NCBI GenBank assembly: GCA_042852035.1
Contig: BAAFHK010000001.1
Location: 630,001 to 662,000, forward strand
Reading direction: 5' to 3'
Length of the DNA stretch: 32,000 nt
Source of the DNA: Candidatus Saccharimonadota bacterium
GTDB lineage: Bacteria > Patescibacteriota > Gracilibacteria > BD1-5 > UBA2023
In this document: positions 12,663 to 21,279 of the stretch, piece after piece
Layout: every line of letters starts with the position of its first letter
Numbering within the stretch: position 1 is the first letter of the stretch
The notes under the pieces: model-generated
The model's input: only the letters and a program-made list of their open reading frames with translations
Database searches by the model: none
What the model was told of the DNA's origin: nothing
Program-made: the position numbers and the translations under genes

Positions 12663-15440
12663 ATGTTTCAAGCGACTCCCGAAGCACAAGCTCGAAAAAA
12701 TATAGATACCCTCCTCATATCAGCAGGATGGATAATCCAAGACATGAAGGATCTTGATATTTTTGCTTCGTTTTGAGTTGCTGTACGAGAATTTCCTCTC
12801 GAATGAGGAAATGGTTTTGTAGACTATCTTCTCTATGTTGATGGGAAAGCTATCGGAATTATCGAGGCAAAAAAAGAAGGTACAACTCTTACATGAGTAG
12901 AAACTCAATCAGCAAAATATCTCAATGGTATACCAAAGTGGGTAGATACCTATCAAAATCCTCTTCCATTCTCGTATGAATCGACAGGAATTGAAACTCG
13001 ATTTACCAATTATCTCGAACCAAATGCTCGCAGTCGAGAAGTATTTGCATTTCATAGACCAGAAACTCTTCGGGAGTGGGCACTGCTCTCTGAGCAACCG
13101 CTTTCACTCCTTCAGAAACTTCCACCACTCGACGAGAGATGACTCAGAAAAGTACAAATCGAAGCTATACAAAATCTCGAAGTCTCACTTGCGAACAATA
13201 GACCTCGGGCACTCATCCAAATGGCAACAGGTACAGGAAAGACTTTTACATTCTGTAATCTTGCCTATCGTCTCATCAAGCATGCGAAAGCAAAAAAGAT
13301 CCTTTTTTTGGTAGATAGAGGCAATCTCGGAAGACAAACTATGACTGAGTTTCAGAATTTCTCAGTTCCATGAGATGGGAGAAAATTCACAGAGCTCTAT
13401 AATGTCCAGAATATGTCTTCAAATAAAATTGATGACATACCAAAAGTAACAATCTCAACCATCCAGAGAATGTACTCTATGCTTTCTGGTTTTGAGATGG
13501 ATGATGAGATGGATGAACAGTCTTTTGAGTCTCTTTCTTTTGCGAATCTCACAGAAAAAGCACCACCAATCGAATATAACCCACAGATACCTATCGAGAC
13601 TTTTGACTATATCGTCGTCGATGAATGTCATAGAAGTATTTATAACCTCTGGAGACAAGTACTTGAGTATTTTGATGCTCGACTTATCGGACTCACTGCC
13701 ACTCCCTCGAAGCAAACTATCGGGTTCTTTCAGAATAATCTCGTCATGGAATACAATCATGAAAGAGCGGTTGCTGACGGAATTAATGTGGATTTTAATG
13801 TCTATAAGATCGAGACAGAAATCGGCACAAAATGATGAAGCGTACAAGCTGGATACTACATCGATAAACGAGATCGACTTACGAGATCTGTGAGATATGA
13901 AAAACTTGATAATGATCTCCTCTACTCTGCATCTGACCTCGATAGAAGCGTGGTTGCACTCGACCAGATTCGTACGGTTATTCGCACGTTTCGAGATCGT
14001 CTACCTGAGATTTTCCCATGAAGAAAAGAAATCCCGAAAACACTCATCTTCGCAAAAGATGACTCTCATGCTGATGATATCGTAAAAATTCTCAGAGAGG
14101 AGTTCGGAAAAGGTAATGATTTTTGTCAGAAAATCACCTATAAAACTACTGGAAAGAAGCCAGAAGACCTCATCAAGGACTTCAAAAACGACTATAATCC
14201 CCGTATTGCTGTCACGGTTGATATGATCGCTACAGGTACAGATATCAAGCCTCTTGAGATCGTATTTTTCATGCGTTCAGTAAAGTCACAACTTCTTTTC
14301 GAACAGATGAAATGAAGATGAGTTCGTGTGATAGATGACAATGACTTTCGGGCAGTATCAGGAAAAGATGCAAATGCAACGAAGACTCACTTCGTCATCA
14401 TCGATGCCGTATGAGTTACCGAACTTGATAAAACAGACACCAAGCCTCTCGATAAACAACCAAGTGTCGGATTTGATAAGATCCTCAAAGTGGTGAGCAT
14501 GGGAAATACTGAACCAGACATCCTCTCTACACTCGTCTCACGACTCTCACGGATTTCGAAGAGCTTCACTCATGATCAGCATAGTGAACTCGAGAAGATA
14601 AGTGGTGGAGTGACTCTCAGCGATATACAAGAGTCTATTATCTCTGCGATCGATGAAGATAATATCATCCGTCAATCACTCGCAGAAAATGGAAAAACAG
14701 AATTTACCGAACTCTCGGAAAAAGAAATAGAAGCAACACGAAAAAAACTGGCACAAACAGCACTGAAGCCACTCTATAATCCTCGCTATCGGGAGAAACT
14801 TCTCGAGATCAAAAGAGATAACGAGCAGATCATCGATACAGTATCGACAGATAGTATCGTATTTACAGGATTCTCTGCGGATGCGAGAGAAAAAGCCGAG
14901 TCACTGATACAATCTTTCCGTACTTTTATCGAGGAAAATCGTGAAGAACTCTCACTCATCAAGGCATACTACAGCCATGCGTATAGGAAACATGTCACCC
15001 TCGATGATGTGAAGGAATTCGCCCGCACTCTCGAGAGACACCGAGAATTCTGAGGACTCCAGAGACTCTGGGAAGCGTACAAGATACTCTCTCCAGAAAA
15101 AGTGATAGAAGAATCAGATCTCAGAGAACCAGATCTCATCCCACTCATCACCTTCACACTCTCACAGGTAGAGAGACTCGAACCCTACAAGCTCTCGATC
15201 CAAGAGCGATATGAGAAGTGGCTCGCCGAGAAACAATCTCAGGGGAAAGTATACTCTCCCGAACAACTCGAATGGCTCGAACTCATGCGCGAGCAGATAT
15301 CCTCATCACTTTCTATAGAACGAACTGACTTCGAATACGATGCCTTCGCTCAGAGAGGATGACTCGGTGGAGTCTATCAAGTATTCGGGAACGAGCTCGA
15401 TGGAGTGATGCAGGAGATGAATGAAGTTTTAGTCGTATAA
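12663..15440 (+). CDS. hsdR: Type I restriction enzyme R subunit (HsdR) with an EcoEI-R-like C-terminal domain, 925 aa
   Basis: The N-terminal nuclease-like region reads [23 protein letters not shown]. Helicase motifs are motif [10 protein letters not shown], motif [10 protein letters not shown], motif III GLTATP and motifs [42 protein letters not shown]. The C-terminal segment ...[29 protein letters not shown] is also present. Four track ORFs (13413, 14490, 15102 ...) share one frame and join through about 13 TGAs. Confidence 0.9.
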
Positions 15441-15451
15441 CCTATCATACT

Positions 15452-15742
15452 ATGGCAAAAGTCACAAAAAAAGCCCTCATGATCGAAGCATTGAACAAAT
15501 ATACTCCGAAACAAATAGAAAATGCAGAGTATTGCGAGATGAATGCTGTAGCAAAAGATGGAAATATAGTAGTATGATGCAATTTTCATCTCAGAGCAAA
15601 AGATAGACTCTCGAAATATGAGAGAATACTCAAAACTATCAGAAGTGCCCTTCATAATACCACTCCCGATGAGAGCAATAAAAGACCTATGGTAGATACA
15701 AGTAGTGAGAATATTCGGTTAATTTCTATTAAACTAAAATAA
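15452..15742 (+). CDS. Hypothetical protein X1, 96 aa
   Basis: ATG lies 11 nt after the hsdR stop. The frame is open for 96 codons in AT-rich DNA with one TGA and ends at TAA 15740-15742. No recognisable motif. Confidence 0.45.
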
Positions 15743-15766
15743 AAGTTTATACCCTAAAAAATCATT

Positions 15767-18706: not shown

Positions 18707-18715
18707 CTTTATTTT

Positions 18716-19795
18716 ATGGCTACTCCGAAAAATTATAGATATAAAATAAAGATAGTATTTAATAATACTGATAATAACGGTCTATTATTAGATAGAAATG
18801 ATATTCCTTATTATGGTTCTAATAAATGAATGGATACATTTAAGATTTATGGGGATCATATAATTATAAATGCGGAAAGGAGTAAAAAGATAGACTTGAG
18901 TAGTATTTTTACTAATTATGTCAGTAGCCTATATTTTCAAATATTGAAATCAATTATTTACTACTACTGAAAGACTGGAAAATTTAATCCAATAGAAGAG
19001 ATAAGTATTGAAACTTTAAATATAAAAAATTCAAAACAAATAGACTCATTACTGTTATCTTCTGATCATTTTAATCAAGTACTAGACAAATCCTTCAATA
19101 TTCCATATTCCATACAGGACTCAAGTCTTGAGGCGATATTTCAAGAAGATGAGAAAGGAAAGAATCTGCTAATAATAATTTCAAATCTACTTGCAGGATC
19201 GTGTAACAATTTATGAAAAAATGAAACTTTTGATATCTTATGGAAGTCATTTAATGGTCTATATAAACTGATTACTAGTAAAACAAAAGATCATGAAGCA
19301 CTAAAAGAACTAAAGAGATTAGTAAATAATAATACTTTGAATTTAAATCATTCTTTACAAATTGCAAATACTCTCACTAGTGGATCTATCAGAAATAATC
19401 CAATTAGATTTAGAGAAATGATTCTCAATAATTTTTCAAAAGAGAATGACACGTTAGCTCTAAGTGATATGATTCAACGCTATTCGGATAAAAGATTAAT
19501 GGAGATATTTCAAGATACTAAATTTTGTTACCGTGAGGAATTCCTAAGAAAAAAATGATTACTTTCCGATGTATCTACCCATATTAGTAATAATATTTCA
19601 GGTAATACTAACAAAGATTCAGATATCGTATTGTTTCTAACTTGAATCTATATGTATTTTGCAAGAAATAAAAATTTTCATTGAGAAACTATTAATCATA
19701 AGTTTAGAATAACTAGTAACAAACTTGATAAAGAATATATTTTTCTAAATAAATTACTTCAAGCCTATATAATCGATTTAATAAATAATCAGTAA
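18716..19795 (+). CDS. Hypothetical protein with a C-terminal HEPN-like RNxxxH motif, 359 aa
   Basis: I parsed the frame codon by codon from ATG 18716 to TAA 19793-19795 and found six TGAs. The region is AT-rich. The C-terminal sequence ...VLFLTGIYMYFARNKNFHGETINHKF contains R-N-x3-H about 35 residues from the end. The gene sits 9 nt after hsdS and 8 nt before hsdM. Confidence 0.65.
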
Positions 19796-19803
19796 CAAAG
19801 ACC

Positions 19804-21279
19804 ATGACTCTCGATAAAGACCAAATATCATCAAAAATCTGGAATCTCTGTAATATCCTCCTCGATGATGGAGTGAGTGCGAGTGACTATCTCCAACAGA
19901 TAACATTTATCATCTTCCTGAAGATGGCATATGAGCGTACTCGGCCTCCATACAACCAAGAGAGTCCAATCCCTGAGAAGTACAACTGGGAATCACTCAT
20001 AAAACTCGATGGAGATGATCTCGAGATACACTATCGTAATACGCTCGATACTCTCGCAAAGTATGATGGAATACTCGGGATGATATTCCGTAAGGCTCAA
20101 AATAAGATCTCTGATCCTGCGAAGCTGAAACGTGTCATATCTGAGATAGGAAAAGTCGAGTGGACTCTACTCGGAGTCGATGTAAAGGGTGAGATCTATG
20201 AATCTCTCCTCGCTCGTGTGGCTGAAGATGTGAAGTCTGGAGCAGGTCAATACTTCACTCCCCGTGTACTCATACGTGCTATGGTCGAGGTGATGCGACC
20301 ATCTATCCATACAACGATACATGATCCATGTGCTGGTACAGGTGGATTCCTCCTCGAGGCTCATGATTATATCCTCGAGCATGGGAAACTCGATCGAGAC
20401 GAGCAGAGAAAGCTCAAAAAAGATATCATCAGCGGTCAGGAACTCGTCGCCGAGACAGCTCGTCTCGCTGTCATGAATATGTTCCTGCATGGAATCGGTG
20501 AGACTAAGAGTCCGATATCTGTCGGAGATAGTCTCATCAAAGACCCTTGATTACGATACAAGATTATCCTGACGAATCCTCCATTCGGTACGAAGAGTAC
20601 TCATAAATTCACCACAGAAGATGGAAAAGAAGAAAAAGGAGATAACAAGATTGAGCGCTCTGATTTTTGGGCAACTACGAGCAATAAGCAACTGAACTTT
20701 ATTCAACACATCCATACACTTCTCGAAGTAGGTGGACGAGCCGCTATAGTCCTTCCAGATAATGTACTCTTTGAGTGAGGTGCAGGAGAAATAATCCGCA
20801 AGAAGATTCTTCACAATTGCAACCTCCATACTATTCTCCGTCTTCCGACAGGGATATTCTATGCGAATGGAGTGAAAGCGAACGTACTATTTCTCGAAAA
20901 GAAAACAAGTGGCGAAGAGTGACATACAAAGTCAGTATGGTTCTATGATCTTCGTACGAATATCCATTTTTCCCTCAAACAAAATCCTCTGAAAGACTCA
21001 GATCTGAGTGAGTTTATCCAGTGCTATAATCCTGAAAATATTGCCGATAGAAAAGAATTATACAGTACTGAAAATCCGGATGGCAGATGGAGAAAATACT
21101 CCATCGAGGAGATCATGAAACGAGACAAGACGAATCTTGATATATTCTGGATCAAAGATAAGGCACTCGAAGAGTCAGAAAATCTCCCAGATCCAGAGAT
21201 TATTGCAGAAGAAATCATCGAAGATCTCGAGAATGCACTCGAGCAGTTTCGACTCATCGAAAAAGAAATAAATAGATAA
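19804..21279 (+). CDS. hsdM: Type I R-M N6-adenine DNA methyltransferase subunit (HsdM), 491 aa
   Basis: The HsdM N-domain reads [32 protein letters not shown]. Other motifs are GQYFTPR, motif [11 protein letters not shown], motif IV LTNPPFG and [21 protein letters not shown]. The track ORF 19804-20550 continues through TGA 20548-20550. Confidence 0.92.

What the first reader, a model, noticed from the sequence alone, without database searches (positions are those of the whole stretch)
12663..21279. A seven-gene, tightly packed type I R-M array with four extra genes wedged between hsdR, hsdS and hsdM
Seen in sequence: all seven CDSs are co-directional, with tiny spacers or overlaps.
- hsdR to X1: 11 nt.
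- X1 to X2: 24 nt.
- X2 and X3 overlap by 43 nt.
- X3 and hsdS overlap by 17 nt.
- hsdS to the HEPN-like gene: 9 nt.
- HEPN-like gene to hsdM: 8 nt.

I see no terminator hairpins inside the array.

Established knowledge: type I loci are usually hsdM-hsdS-hsdR. They sometimes host restriction-linked ORFs such as Rlo genes, Abi genes or HEPN proteins.

Inference: the array is one transcription unit in which the accessory genes are expressed with, and probably functionally coupled to, the R-M enzyme. The order R...S...M, with two separate insertions, is unusual.
Basis: partly seen in the sequence, partly recalled or inferred. Interest (0 to 1): 0.75.

Follow-up and report, generated by a model that had tools for sequence, protein, structure and literature searches.

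The report
Restriction operon with swappable defence cargo
A DNA-restriction gene cluster in an uncultured, genetically recoded bacterium carries four extra genes: one is a fixed companion of the restriction gene, and the other three are interchangeable cargo of unknown families sitting exactly where relatives carry known anti-virus genes, which is a documented pattern that here yields new candidate defence genes.

Summary
Seven co-directional CDSs (12663-21279) have exactly the stated spacers and overlaps once TGA is read as Gly (code 25; source is a Candidatus Altimarinota/Gracilibacteria MAG). HsdR (EcoEI/EcoAI-like), HsdS and HsdM are intact.

The order hsdR-[slot A]-hsdS-[slot B]-hsdM is not unusual. 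It is conserved in this hsd lineage across several phyla and is known from Campylobacter jejuni (hsdR-rloA-rloB-hsdS-hsdM).

DNA comparison with sister loci (76-82% identity) shows the backbone runs from the hsdR start to the X1 stop, then stops. It resumes in hsdS, breaks at the hsdS 3' end, and resumes exactly at the hsdM ATG.

- X1 (96 aa) is a backbone gene that always follows hsdR in this clade.
- X2-X3 (a soluble protein plus a 4-TM protein) and X4 are swappable, AT-rich cargo.
- Sister loci carry an AriA/OLD-like ATPase, AbiD, Fic or a GHKL ATPase in the same slots.
- X2-X3 and X4 also occur outside R-M loci. X4 is typically found in defence islands.
- None of the four matches Pfam, PADLOC, NCBIfam, PHROGs or PDB. 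'HEPN-like' rests only on a conserved Rx4H motif.

Best reading: a type I R-M operon acting as a landing pad for independent candidate defence modules, i.e. new members of a known kind. Co-transcription and any functional coupling remain untested.

The parts
12547..12662 (+). AT-rich divergent intergenic region upstream of hsdR; candidate promoter, with a TATACAAT -10-like element at 12633-12640
   Evidence: Sequence read. A TA(T/C)ACAAT element lies 25-45 nt upstream of the hsdR ATG in the window, L026/L011, L029 and L033, although the flanks are otherwise unrelated. ATACAAT occurs at chance frequency in the window overall (9 against 6.4), so the evidence is weak. Promoter function is inferred, not shown.
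12663..15440 (+). hsdR, type I restriction subunit (925 aa), EcoEI/EcoAI-like
   Evidence: Pfam ResIII 3.7e-37, Helicase_C, HSDR_N and EcoEI_R_C 3.7e-27. PADLOC REase_I 2.2e-49. NCBIfam nearest PRK11448 and EcoAI/FtnUII, both below the equivalog cut-offs. 83% identical to L026/L027/L029 HsdR.
15452..15742 (+). X1, a 96-aa conserved backbone protein of unknown function that always lies directly after hsdR in this clade
   Evidence: Seven homologues at 73-87% identity (alignment). Found immediately after hsdR in L008, L026, L027/28, L029, L030 and L033, whatever follows it. DNA identity with sister loci ends at the X1 stop. pN/pS 0.06-0.12/0.55. No family or PDB match.
15743..17338 (+). Slot A, the cargo site between the X1 stop and the hsdS start; here it is occupied by X2-X3
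   Evidence: blastn breakpoints against L026/L027/L029/L033. The same slot holds an AriA/AbiLi/OLD-like AAA_15/21 ATPase in L026 and L029, an unrelated soluble+TM pair in L030, and a GHKL ATPase in L020.
15767..16750 (+). X2, a 327-aa soluble protein of unknown fold with 18 in-frame TGA (Gly) codons; first gene of the X2-X3 cassette
   Evidence: Only 9 hits among 1.84e9 cluster representatives, apparently all from recoded genomes. Always followed by an X3 homologue (window, L008, L009, L010). 29% GC. No Pfam, PADLOC, NCBIfam or PHROG hit. The AF2 model failed at pLDDT 37. hhalign against KwaB 0.15% and RexA 0.3%. The 43-nt overlap with X3 comes from a 16-codon C-terminal extension that is absent in L008.
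16708..17355 (+). X3, a 215-aa integral membrane protein with 4 predicted TM helices; second gene of the cassette
   Evidence: Hydropathy windows at about residues 33-55, 63-86, 122-148 and 185-207. Conserved TM2 motif G-x-LLNFL-x-LI...S-x-L across four loci. 25% GC. hhalign against RexB 0.16%. No family hits.
17339..18706 (+). hsdS, specificity subunit (455 aa) with two TRDs
   Evidence: Pfam Methylase_S with 2 matched stretches. PADLOC Specificity_I 5.6e-64 over residues 101-454. Only the central and C-terminal conserved regions match L026 and L008 at the DNA level, while TRD1 is shared with L029.
18707..19803 (+). Slot B, the cargo site between the hsdS stop and the hsdM ATG; here it is occupied by X4
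   Evidence: DNA identity with L020, L021, L026 and L029 resumes exactly at 19804. The same slot holds AbiD/Abi_2 in L029, HTH-Fic/SoFic-like in L026, a PsbP_2-like protein in L020, and X4 plus a 201-aa ORF in L021.
18716..19795 (+).
   Evidence: 11 homologues at 41-54% identity in both recoded and standard-code organisms. AF2 model pLDDT 77. No Foldseek hit in PDB or BFVD. No profile hit to PDB sequences. hhalign against Abi_2 0.1%. 25% GC. Neighbourhoods are defence-type.
19804..21279 (+). hsdM, the N6-adenine methyltransferase subunit (491 aa)
   Evidence: Pfam N6_Mtase 1.5e-70 and HsdM_N. PADLOC MTase_I 3.1e-185 over residues 5-490. 90% identical to L026 and L029 HsdM.

Best explanation
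The region is one compact type I restriction-modification locus of an EcoEI/EcoAI-like lineage, in a code-25 Gracilibacteria (Ca. Altimarinota) genome. Its conserved backbone is hsdR-X1-[slot A]-hsdS-[slot B]-hsdM.

Shown: the two slots are exchange sites. The cargo starts and ends within a few nucleotides of the backbone stop and start codons, and it differs between otherwise 76-90% identical sister loci. In this genome slot A holds a two-gene cassette, X2 (soluble) plus X3 (4-TM membrane protein), and slot B holds X4.

Inferred:
- The cassettes were acquired by recombination within the conserved flanking hsd sequence, probably from lower-GC code-25 relatives.
- They are read through from the hsdR promoter, because spacers of 24 nt or less leave no room for signals of their own.
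- They act as autonomous second-line anti-phage modules rather than as parts of the restriction enzyme.
- X2 would sense infection and trigger the membrane protein X3, giving abortive infection through membrane damage.
- X4 would use its conserved Rx4H centre as a nuclease, probably an RNase.
- X1, the only extra gene that tracks hsdR, would be an accessory or regulator of the R-M backbone.
For: - Backbone identity.
- R-[A]-S-[B]-M order conserved in L015, L016, L017, L020, L026 and L029.
- Exact breakpoints at the X1 stop (15741/2), the hsdS 3' end (about 18696) and the hsdM ATG (19804).
- No boundary repeats.
- Sister-slot cargo belongs to recognised defence families: AbiD 1.9e-63, AriA/AbiLi/Old-like ATPase 5e-24, SoFic-like 1e-10; GHKL ATPase and an HsdS-Schlafen fusion in L020, PDC-S53 in L021.
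- Cargo is AT-rich (25-29% GC against 38-43% for the hsd genes) here and in sister loci.
- The X2-X3 pair is conserved in four loci, one of them not next to hsdR.
- X4 homologues lie next to another type I R-M that carries Kiwa, AbiE and MNT genes, a Gabija-like OLD+UvrD pair, a type IIG MTase and DUF1016, a Shedu SduA_C protein, and SLFN_AlbA_2 and a caspase-like peptidase.
- All four extra genes are under purifying selection.
- Literature precedent for autonomous defence systems embedded in type I R-M: TgvAB (PMC11411939); DarTG2 with the hsdS-hsdR site proposed as a recombination hotspot (PMC12255303); 3,231 embedded families in BREX, DISARM and type I R-M (bioRxiv 10.1101/2024.01.29.577857).
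Against: - No experimental or transcript data exist. Promoter and terminator scans are at chance level and the TATACAAT element is not statistically distinctive.
- Defence function for X2-X3 and X4 rests only on guilt by embedding and by association. None hits PADLOC.
- The X2 fold could not be modelled.
- X4 has no structural or profile similarity to any HEPN or other nuclease, and its motif lies in a low-confidence loop of the model.
- One X4 context (L001/L002) has no adjacent defence gene.
- Only four X2-X3 loci are known, so their context statistics are thin.
- X1 has no assignable function.
Confidence: 0.6

Rival explanations
1. PrrC-like coupling. The embedded proteins are physically or functionally coupled to the R-M enzyme. 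For example, they could be held latent by HsdR/M/S and released when a phage anti-restriction protein inactivates the enzyme, so the seven genes would form one integrated system.
For: - Very tight packing and two overlaps.
- X1 is invariably linked to hsdR.
- Three X4 family loci are in or directly beside type I R-M loci (window, L021, L004).
- TgvAB protected 10- to 100-fold less against several phages when separated from its type I cluster (PMC11411939).
- PrrC is reported as almost exclusively embedded in type I R-M (bioRxiv 10.1101/2024.01.29.577857).
Against: - Slot A and slot B carry mutually unrelated cargo in loci whose HsdR and HsdM are 83-90% identical. The enzyme is therefore unlikely to have co-evolved an interface with each cargo.
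- X2-X3 occurs next to an ABC-F gene and an unrelated ORF with no hsdR (L009).
- Most X4 homologues are not in R-M loci.
Confidence: 0.2
2. The cargo genes are selfish addiction or stabilisation modules, or otherwise non-defence passengers such as a membrane protein pair with a cellular role. They would simply have hitch-hiked into recombination-prone gaps of a mobile R-M island.
For: - No match to any known defence family.
- The X2-X3 family is extremely rare.
- The low GC suggests recent foreign origin.
- One X4 locus has no obvious defence neighbours.
- Some slot cargo in relatives is not obviously defensive, for example the PsbP_2-like protein in L020.
Against: - The same slots in the closest sister loci hold AbiD, an AriA/OLD-like ATPase and Fic.
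- X4 neighbourhoods are repeatedly defence-type.
- All four genes are under purifying selection across 55-67% identical orthologues, which argues for a selected function.
Confidence: 0.15
3. The extra ORFs are annotation artefacts of reading TGA as sense, or decayed remnants, and are not functional genes.
For: Reading TGA as sense creates many long spurious ORFs in this window, for example antisense ORFs of 447 and 476 codons inside hsdR.
Against: - Each extra ORF has full-length homologues in other genomes.
- Synteny is conserved.
- pN is far below pS.
- TGA positions align with conserved Gly.
Confidence: 0.01

Closest known systems
Campylobacter jejuni type I hsd loci with restriction-linked ORFs (hsdR-rloA-rloB-hsdS-hsdM)
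   Same: Same gene order R...S...M. Both have a pair of slightly overlapping genes of unknown function between hsdR and hsdS, and the inserts vary between strains (PMC2928727; Miller et al. 2005, as cited in PMC11411939).
   Different: X2 and X3 give no hit to any Pfam model, including the RloB and AAA ATPase families. The host phylum and the genetic code differ. This locus also has the conserved small gene X1 and a filled S-M slot. The sister-locus AAA_15/21 ATPase cargo (L026, L029) is a likelier functional counterpart of RloA/B; that comparison rests on my own recollection that RloA is an AAA-type ATPase and was not tested here.
Defence systems embedded in type I R-M operons: TgvAB in V. 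cholerae VPI-2, DarTG2 in the EPEC RRDM island, PrrC; 'guilt-by-embedding' (Payne et al. 2024)
   Same: Autonomous or semi-autonomous defence genes wedged between hsd genes. The embedding site behaves as a recombination hotspot, and the whole cluster is compact and co-directional (PMC11411939, PMC12255303, bioRxiv 10.1101/2024.01.29.577857).
   Different: The cargo here (X2-X3, X4) belongs to families with no known domain and no PADLOC model. There are two separate slots plus a backbone-linked small gene. Nothing has been tested experimentally. X2-X3 appears confined to TGA-recoded bacteria.
Two-component soluble-sensor plus membrane-effector abortive infection systems: lambda RexA/RexB and Kiwa KwaA/KwaB
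   Same: X2 (327 aa, soluble) followed by X3 (215 aa, 4 TM) has the same layout and sizes as RexA (279 aa) and RexB (144 aa; 4 TM from my own knowledge, not tested here). A Kiwa pair is embedded in the type I R-M of L004.
   Different: There is no detectable homology: hhalign gives 0.15% for X2 against KwaB, 0.3% for X2 against RexA and 0.16% for X3 against RexB. There is also no Pfam KwaA or KwaB hit. The gene order is the reverse of Kiwa. The resemblance is architectural only.
HEPN-domain Abi proteins (Abi_2/AbiD/AbiF) inserted between hsdS and hsdM
   Same: The sister locus L029 carries an AbiD/Abi_2 protein with 'RNISAHH' in exactly the slot where X4 sits with 'RNKNFHGE'. Both have an Rx4H motif in an alpha-helical C-terminal region.
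   Different: The X4 profile against Abi_2 gives probability 0.1%. No HEPN Pfam family hits X4, and there is no structural match to any HEPN structure in PDB. X4 also has an additional N-terminal beta domain.

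Membership tests
Type I restriction-modification system | HsdR with an N-terminal nuclease domain and an SF2 helicase/translocase core | tested here: met
   Pfam HSDR_N, ResIII and Helicase_C; PADLOC REase_I 2.2e-49. Motifs ATGTGKT, DECH and QxxGRxxR are visible in the translation.
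Type I restriction-modification system | HsdM N6-adenine methyltransferase, and HsdS with two target-recognition domains | tested here: met
   N6_Mtase 1.5e-70 and HsdM_N; Methylase_S with two matched stretches; PADLOC MTase_I 3.1e-185 and Specificity_I 5.6e-64.
Type I restriction-modification system | Methylation and restriction activity at a bipartite target | not testable with these tools
   Needs methylome data or biochemistry.
Type IB (EcoAI/EcoEI) subfamily | HsdR with the EcoEI_R_C C-terminal domain and equivalog-level similarity to EcoAI/EcoEI R | tested here: inconclusive
   EcoEI_R_C 3.7e-27 is present. NCBIfam PRK11448 scores 374.7 bits against a cut-off of 729, and restrict_EcoAI scores 199.8 against 550.
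HEPN superfamily (X4) | Conserved Rx4-6H motif | tested here: met
   R317-N-K-x-F-H322 is nearly invariant in 11 of the 12 family members; the twelfth, P0012, is truncated before the motif.
HEPN superfamily (X4) | Significant sequence or profile similarity to a HEPN family | tested here: not met
   No Pfam hit even at E <= 10. No PADLOC, NCBIfam or PHROG hit. hhalign against the Abi_2 protein of L029 gives 0.1%. The profile against PDB sequences finds nothing credible.
HEPN superfamily (X4) | Four-helix HEPN fold with the motif at the catalytic helix | tested here: not met
   The AF2 model (pLDDT 77) has an all-alpha C-terminal domain. Foldseek finds no match in PDB (best E 0.53) or BFVD (best E 0.089). 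The motif lies at a helix end and in a low-confidence loop (residues 320-332, pLDDT < 50), so the geometry cannot be judged.
Kiwa (KwaA/KwaB) | Homology of the soluble protein to KwaB (DUF4868) and of the TM protein to KwaA | tested here: not met
   No Pfam KwaA or KwaB hit for either protein. hhalign of the X2 family against KwaB of L004 gives 0.15%. X3 was not compared with KwaA directly. The gene order is reversed.
RexAB-like exclusion systems | Homology to lambda RexA and RexB | tested here: not met
   hhalign gives 0.3% (X2 against RexA) and 0.16% (X3 against RexB).
Defence genes embedded in type I R-M ('guilt-by-embedding' class) | Located between genes of one R-M system, with occupancy varying between orthologous loci | tested here: met
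   Breakpoints at the X1 stop, the hsdS ends and the hsdM ATG. Cargo differs in L008, L020, L021, L026, L029 and L030.
Defence genes embedded in type I R-M ('guilt-by-embedding' class) | The same slots hold known defence genes in relatives | tested here: met
   AbiD, an AriA/AbiLi/Old-like ATPase and SoFic-like; GHKL ATPase and PDC-S53.
Defence genes embedded in type I R-M ('guilt-by-embedding' class) | Demonstrated anti-phage activity | not testable with these tools
   Requires expression of TGA-to-GGN recoded genes and phage challenge.
Single operon (one transcription unit) | One promoter, no internal terminators, and a transcript spanning all junctions | tested here: inconclusive
   Spacers are 24 nt or less. 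Promoter and terminator scans are at chance level. The internal hairpin is not significant, and no terminator is detectable even after hsdM. RNA data are needed.

The most novel reading that the evidence does not exclude
X2-X3 is a previously undescribed two-component, membrane-acting abortive-infection system confined to TGA-recoded (code-25) bacteria. X4 is a new cross-phylum defence family that uses an Rx4H catalytic centre on a fold with no solved relative. X1 is a dedicated HsdR-associated adaptor or regulator that makes this R-M backbone a cassette platform for such modules.
Probability: 0.35. Interest if true: 0.6.

Novelty: new member of a known kind. Interest (0 to 1): 0.4.

Why it matters
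Defence genes embedded in type I R-M operons are an established source of new anti-phage systems (TgvAB, DarTG2, PrrC, the HEC systems). This locus and its sister loci add three things.

- **A cleanly delimited two-slot exchange architecture.** It is found in Gracilibacteria/Absconditabacteria, CPR lineages whose immune repertoire is poorly known.
- **Three uncharacterised cargo proteins.** These are the X2-X3 pair and X4. X4 recurs in defence islands of standard-code bacteria, so it can be tested in ordinary hosts.
- **X1.** It is a small protein strictly linked to hsdR.

X2, with 18 in-frame TGA codons, also illustrates how a deviant genetic code may confine a module to one clade. If the cargo is shown to defend, it would extend the catalogue of defence systems. 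It would not change the concept.

Tried and rejected
- Pfam (including E <= 10), PADLOC, NCBIfam and PHROGs on X1-X4: no credible hit.
- Foldseek of the X4 model against PDB and BFVD: nothing significant.
- X4 and X1 profiles against PDB sequences: nothing.
- AF2 on X2 with 8 sequences: pLDDT 37, unusable, so no fold search was run.
- Kiwa hypothesis for X2-X3: rejected.
- RexAB hypothesis: rejected.
- X4 = Abi_2: rejected.
- The L030 soluble+TM pair as X2-X3 homologues: rejected for the soluble protein (0.18%). The TM protein gives only a weak hit (probability 25%) that may be compositional.
- Metagenome DNA scan for X2: none found, possibly because standard-code tblastn confirmation is hampered by 18 TGAs.
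- IMG/VR scan for X4: none. The same scan for X2 could not be run on the gappy alignment.
- tblastn of an X4 homologue against plasmids: none.
- Boundary repeats or attC-like motifs at the cassette junctions: none seen.
- Rfam scan: only the tRNA.
- Promoter and terminator scans: chance level.
- The ATACAAT element: not enriched.
- All-against-all BLAST of cargo proteins from different loci: no relationships.

Full report
**Observation and genetic code**

Under table 11 the region breaks into short ORFs. Reading TGA as sense raises long-ORF coverage of the window from 22.5 kb to 80 kb.

TGA encodes Gly. HsdR motif VI reads QMK(TGA)R(TGA)VR and HsdM reads LFE(TGA)GAGE. In the X4 family, recoded members deposited with table-4 translations carry W exactly where standard-code members have invariant G.

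The database identifies the source as a 'Candidatus Altimarinota bacterium' MAG with locus tags HHAS10_06260, 06270 and 06300 on a 750-kb contig. This is a phylum of the Patescibacteria/CPR group.

**The backbone**

- HsdR (925 aa) has HSDR_N, ResIII, Helicase_C and the EcoEI_R_C tail.
- HsdS has two Methylase_S stretches.
- HsdM has HsdM_N and N6_Mtase.
- NCBIfam places HsdR nearest the EcoAI/EcoEI-type R subunits but below the equivalog cut-offs.
- All three look intact.

**The four extras are real genes of unknown families**

None of X1 (96 aa), X2 (327 aa), X3 (215 aa) or X4 (359 aa) hits Pfam (even at E <= 10), PADLOC, NCBIfam or PHROGs. All have homologues elsewhere:

- X1 has seven at 73-87% identity.
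- X2 has only nine hits among 1.84 billion cluster representatives, apparently all from recoded genomes.
- X3 has homologues downstream of every X2 homologue that has sequence there.
- X4 has eleven at 41-54% identity, in both recoded and standard-code organisms.

Nei-Gojobori counts with a code-25 table give pN far below pS for each: X1 0.06-0.12/0.55, X2 0.21/0.72, X3 0.24/0.81, X4 0.31/0.63. Synonymous sites are saturated, so only the direction of the result is meaningful.

**Comparative architecture: the key result**

Loci were fetched through HsdR relatives, through X1, X2 and X4 homologues and through an X1 metagenome scan. They were mapped against the window proteins.

The order hsdR-[A]-hsdS-[B]-hsdM is general in this hsd lineage:

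| Locus | Taxon or type | Arrangement |
|---|---|---|
| L029 | recoded | R-X1-AAA_15/21 ATPase-S-Abi_2-M |
| L026 | recoded | R-BroN-X1-ATPase-S-(HTH-Fic)-M |
| L008 | recoded | R-X1-X2-X3-S |
| L030 | recoded | R-X1-(272-aa soluble + TM protein)-S |
| L020 | Absconditabacterales | R-GHKL ATPase-S-PsbP_2-like-M-(HsdS/Schlafen fusion) |
| L021 | recoded | PDC-S53-S-X4-201 aa-M |
| L017 | Planctomycetota | R-S-451 aa-M |
| L015 | Acidobacteriaceae | R-S-small ORFs-M |
| L016 | Lachnospiraceae | R-S-M |

At the DNA level the window matches L026, L027, L029 and L033 at 76-82% identity, continuously from the hsdR start to the X1 stop (15741). There is then no match until hsdS. The match ends again at the hsdS 3' end (about 18696) and resumes exactly at the hsdM ATG (19804) in four loci.

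HsdR is 83% and HsdM 90% identical at the protein level in these loci. The cargo proteins are mutually unrelated. Cargo is AT-rich: X2 29%, X3 25% and X4 25% GC, against 38-43% for the hsd genes. The same holds in sister loci. No boundary repeats or attC-like motifs are present, so exchange by homologous recombination in the conserved flanks is the simplest inference.

**X1**

X1 always sits directly after hsdR, at about 10 nt. The one exception is L026, where a Bro-N gene intervenes. It is present whether slot A holds X2-X3, an ATPase or another pair. It is absent from the more distant L020 and from the standard-code relatives.

It is therefore part of the backbone of this clade, not cargo. 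Its function is unknown, and its profile finds nothing in the PDB.

**X2-X3**

X3 has four strong hydrophobic segments and a conserved TM2 motif, G-x-LLNFL-x-LI. X2 is soluble and rich in TGA-encoded Gly (18 codons).

The pair is conserved in four loci. In L009 its neighbours are an unrelated 310-aa ORF and a divergent ABC-F gene, not hsdR. It is therefore a mobile two-gene module.

The 43-nt X2/X3 overlap is specific to this genome. In L008 X2 stops 16 codons earlier and there is a 6-nt gap.

Architecturally the pair resembles RexA/RexB or Kiwa, but profile comparisons reject homology. The AF2 model of X2 was unusable, with pLDDT 37.

**X4**

The family alignment shows a near-invariant R317-N-K-x-F-H322-G-E, plus conserved IRxR, RYxDxR and YRE motifs. 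The AF2 model (pLDDT 77) has an N-terminal beta domain and a C-terminal all-alpha domain. The motif lies at a helix end and runs into a low-confidence loop.

None of the following finds a relative:

- Foldseek against PDB and BFVD
- the family profile against PDB sequences
- hhalign against the Abi_2 protein that occupies the same slot in L029

'HEPN-like' therefore remains a motif-level suggestion.

The X4 contexts are:

- slot B of type I R-M (window, L021)
- 30 nt after the hsdR of a different type I system whose operon also holds AbiEii, MNT/HEPN and KwaA/KwaB (L004-7)
- after a conserved 298-aa partner, next to Gabija-like OLD+UvrD, a type IIG MTase or DUF1016 (L022-25)
- after a helicase plus a Shedu-like SduA_C protein (L035)
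- after SLFN_AlbA_2 and before a caspase-like peptidase (L036, L037)
- one locus without adjacent defence genes (L001/2)

X4 was not found on viral contigs or plasmids.

**One transcription unit?**

The array is bounded by a divergent gene upstream, across a 116-nt AT-rich spacer, and by a convergent gene downstream. Internal spacers of 24 nt or less leave no room for separate intergenic signals, and tight packing is the rule in all sister loci.

A TA(T/C)ACAAT element lies upstream of hsdR in several loci. On the + strand it does not occur between X1 and hsdM, but the heptamer is at chance frequency overall.

Promoter and terminator scans are at chance level. The one hairpin just after X3 is not significant, and no terminator is detectable even after hsdM. 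Absence of hairpins is therefore uninformative. Co-transcription is plausible but inferred, not shown.

**Mechanism and rivals**

Best-supported reading (confidence about 0.6): this is a type I R-M operon serving as a landing pad for autonomous defence cargo. The slot architecture is shown. The defence role of the cargo is inferred from embedding and association. The specific mechanisms are analogy-level inference: X2 sensing and triggering an X3 membrane effector, and X4 acting as an Rx4H nuclease.

The rivals are:

- PrrC-like functional coupling (0.2). This is disfavoured because 83-90% identical enzymes host unrelated cargo, and the cargo also occurs without R-M.
- Non-defence or selfish passengers (0.15).
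- Artefact (0.01; refuted).

**Comparison with what is known, and novelty**

The R...S...M order with a two-gene, slightly overlapping insert is documented in C. jejuni (PMC2928727). Embedded defence systems in type I R-M are established experimentally for TgvAB (PMC11411939) and for DarTG2, where the site was called a potential recombination hotspot (PMC12255303). They have also been catalogued at scale, with 3,231 embedded families (bioRxiv 10.1101/2024.01.29.577857).

The locus is therefore a new member of a known kind. What is new is the identity of the cargo (three proteins with no known domain, plus X1), the precise two-slot architecture in code-25 CPR bacteria, and the apparent restriction of X2-X3 to recoded genomes.

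Noticed in passing
P0002, P0003, P0014-P0019, P0024-P0029 (public protein databases): Many database entries from code-25 genomes are translated with TGA = Trp (table 4 style). They show W exactly where standard-code homologues have invariant Gly, for example FHWE against FHGE. This lowers apparent identities (X2 against P0014 is 61% as deposited and 67% when corrected) and would degrade MSAs and structure predictions.
   Followed up: partly
window 9228-9304 (+): tRNA-Lys(CTT) lies 3.3 kb upstream of hsdR and is followed by a 772-aa AAA ATPase (9461-11779). The hsd array has different flanking genes in every sister locus, so the whole array may itself be an island. No integrase was seen in the window.
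   Followed up: partly
window 30324-32000 (+), runs off the window end: A ResIII/DEAD helicase gene (Pfam ResIII 2.2e-25) may belong to a second restriction or defence system about 9 kb downstream of hsdM.
   Followed up: no
window 21887-22786 (-) and 22823-24328 (-): A membrane protein with three T4SS_pilin repeats (6e-20) sits next to a 501-aa Pro/Ser/Ala-rich protein with a coiled-coil C-terminus and no Pfam hit. Both lie just downstream of the array on the opposite strand.
   Followed up: no
L022-L025 (for example L023:600-2576): In standard-code bacteria the X4 homologue P0010 is always preceded, 12 nt upstream, by a conserved 298-aa Cys/His-rich ORF with no Pfam or PADLOC hit. This suggests a two-gene cassette there. 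The window has no counterpart of that partner.
   Followed up: partly
L004:1-11068: A standard-code type I R-M operon is packed with embedded systems: DUF6577-AbiEii-hsdM-NTase_sub_bind(HEPN)-(MNT/HsdS)-KwaA-KwaB-hsdR, followed by the X4 homologue. It is a striking multi-system embedding.
   Followed up: partly
L030:729-2019: Slot A of another hsdR-X1 locus holds a different soluble (272 aa) plus multi-TM (about 152-169 aa) pair that overlaps by about 44 nt. This mirrors the X2-X3 layout without detectable homology, so the 'soluble + membrane' design recurs in this slot.
   Followed up: partly
L020:14997-16652: After hsdM, an Absconditabacterales locus encodes a fusion of a half-HsdS (one Methylase_S TRD) with a Schlafen/AlbA_2 domain.
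   Followed up: no
window 16703-16750: The X2/X3 overlap arises because X2 in this genome reads 16 codons past the position of the stop codon in the L008 orthologue. The extension (KKPWVKKTQQKPSNID) is not conserved.
   Followed up: yes
window 12660-15428 (- strand): Reading TGA as sense creates antisense ORFs of 447 and 476 codons inside hsdR. These are artefacts and a warning for ORF-length-based gene calling in code-25 genomes.
   Followed up: partly
window 17339-18706, compared with L008, L026, L029 and L021: HsdS TRDs are shuffled independently of the cargo. TRD1 is shared with L029 (80% nt identity) but not with L008 or L026, while only the central and C-terminal conserved regions match all loci. 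Specificity swapping and cargo swapping may use the same recombination substrates.
   Followed up: partly
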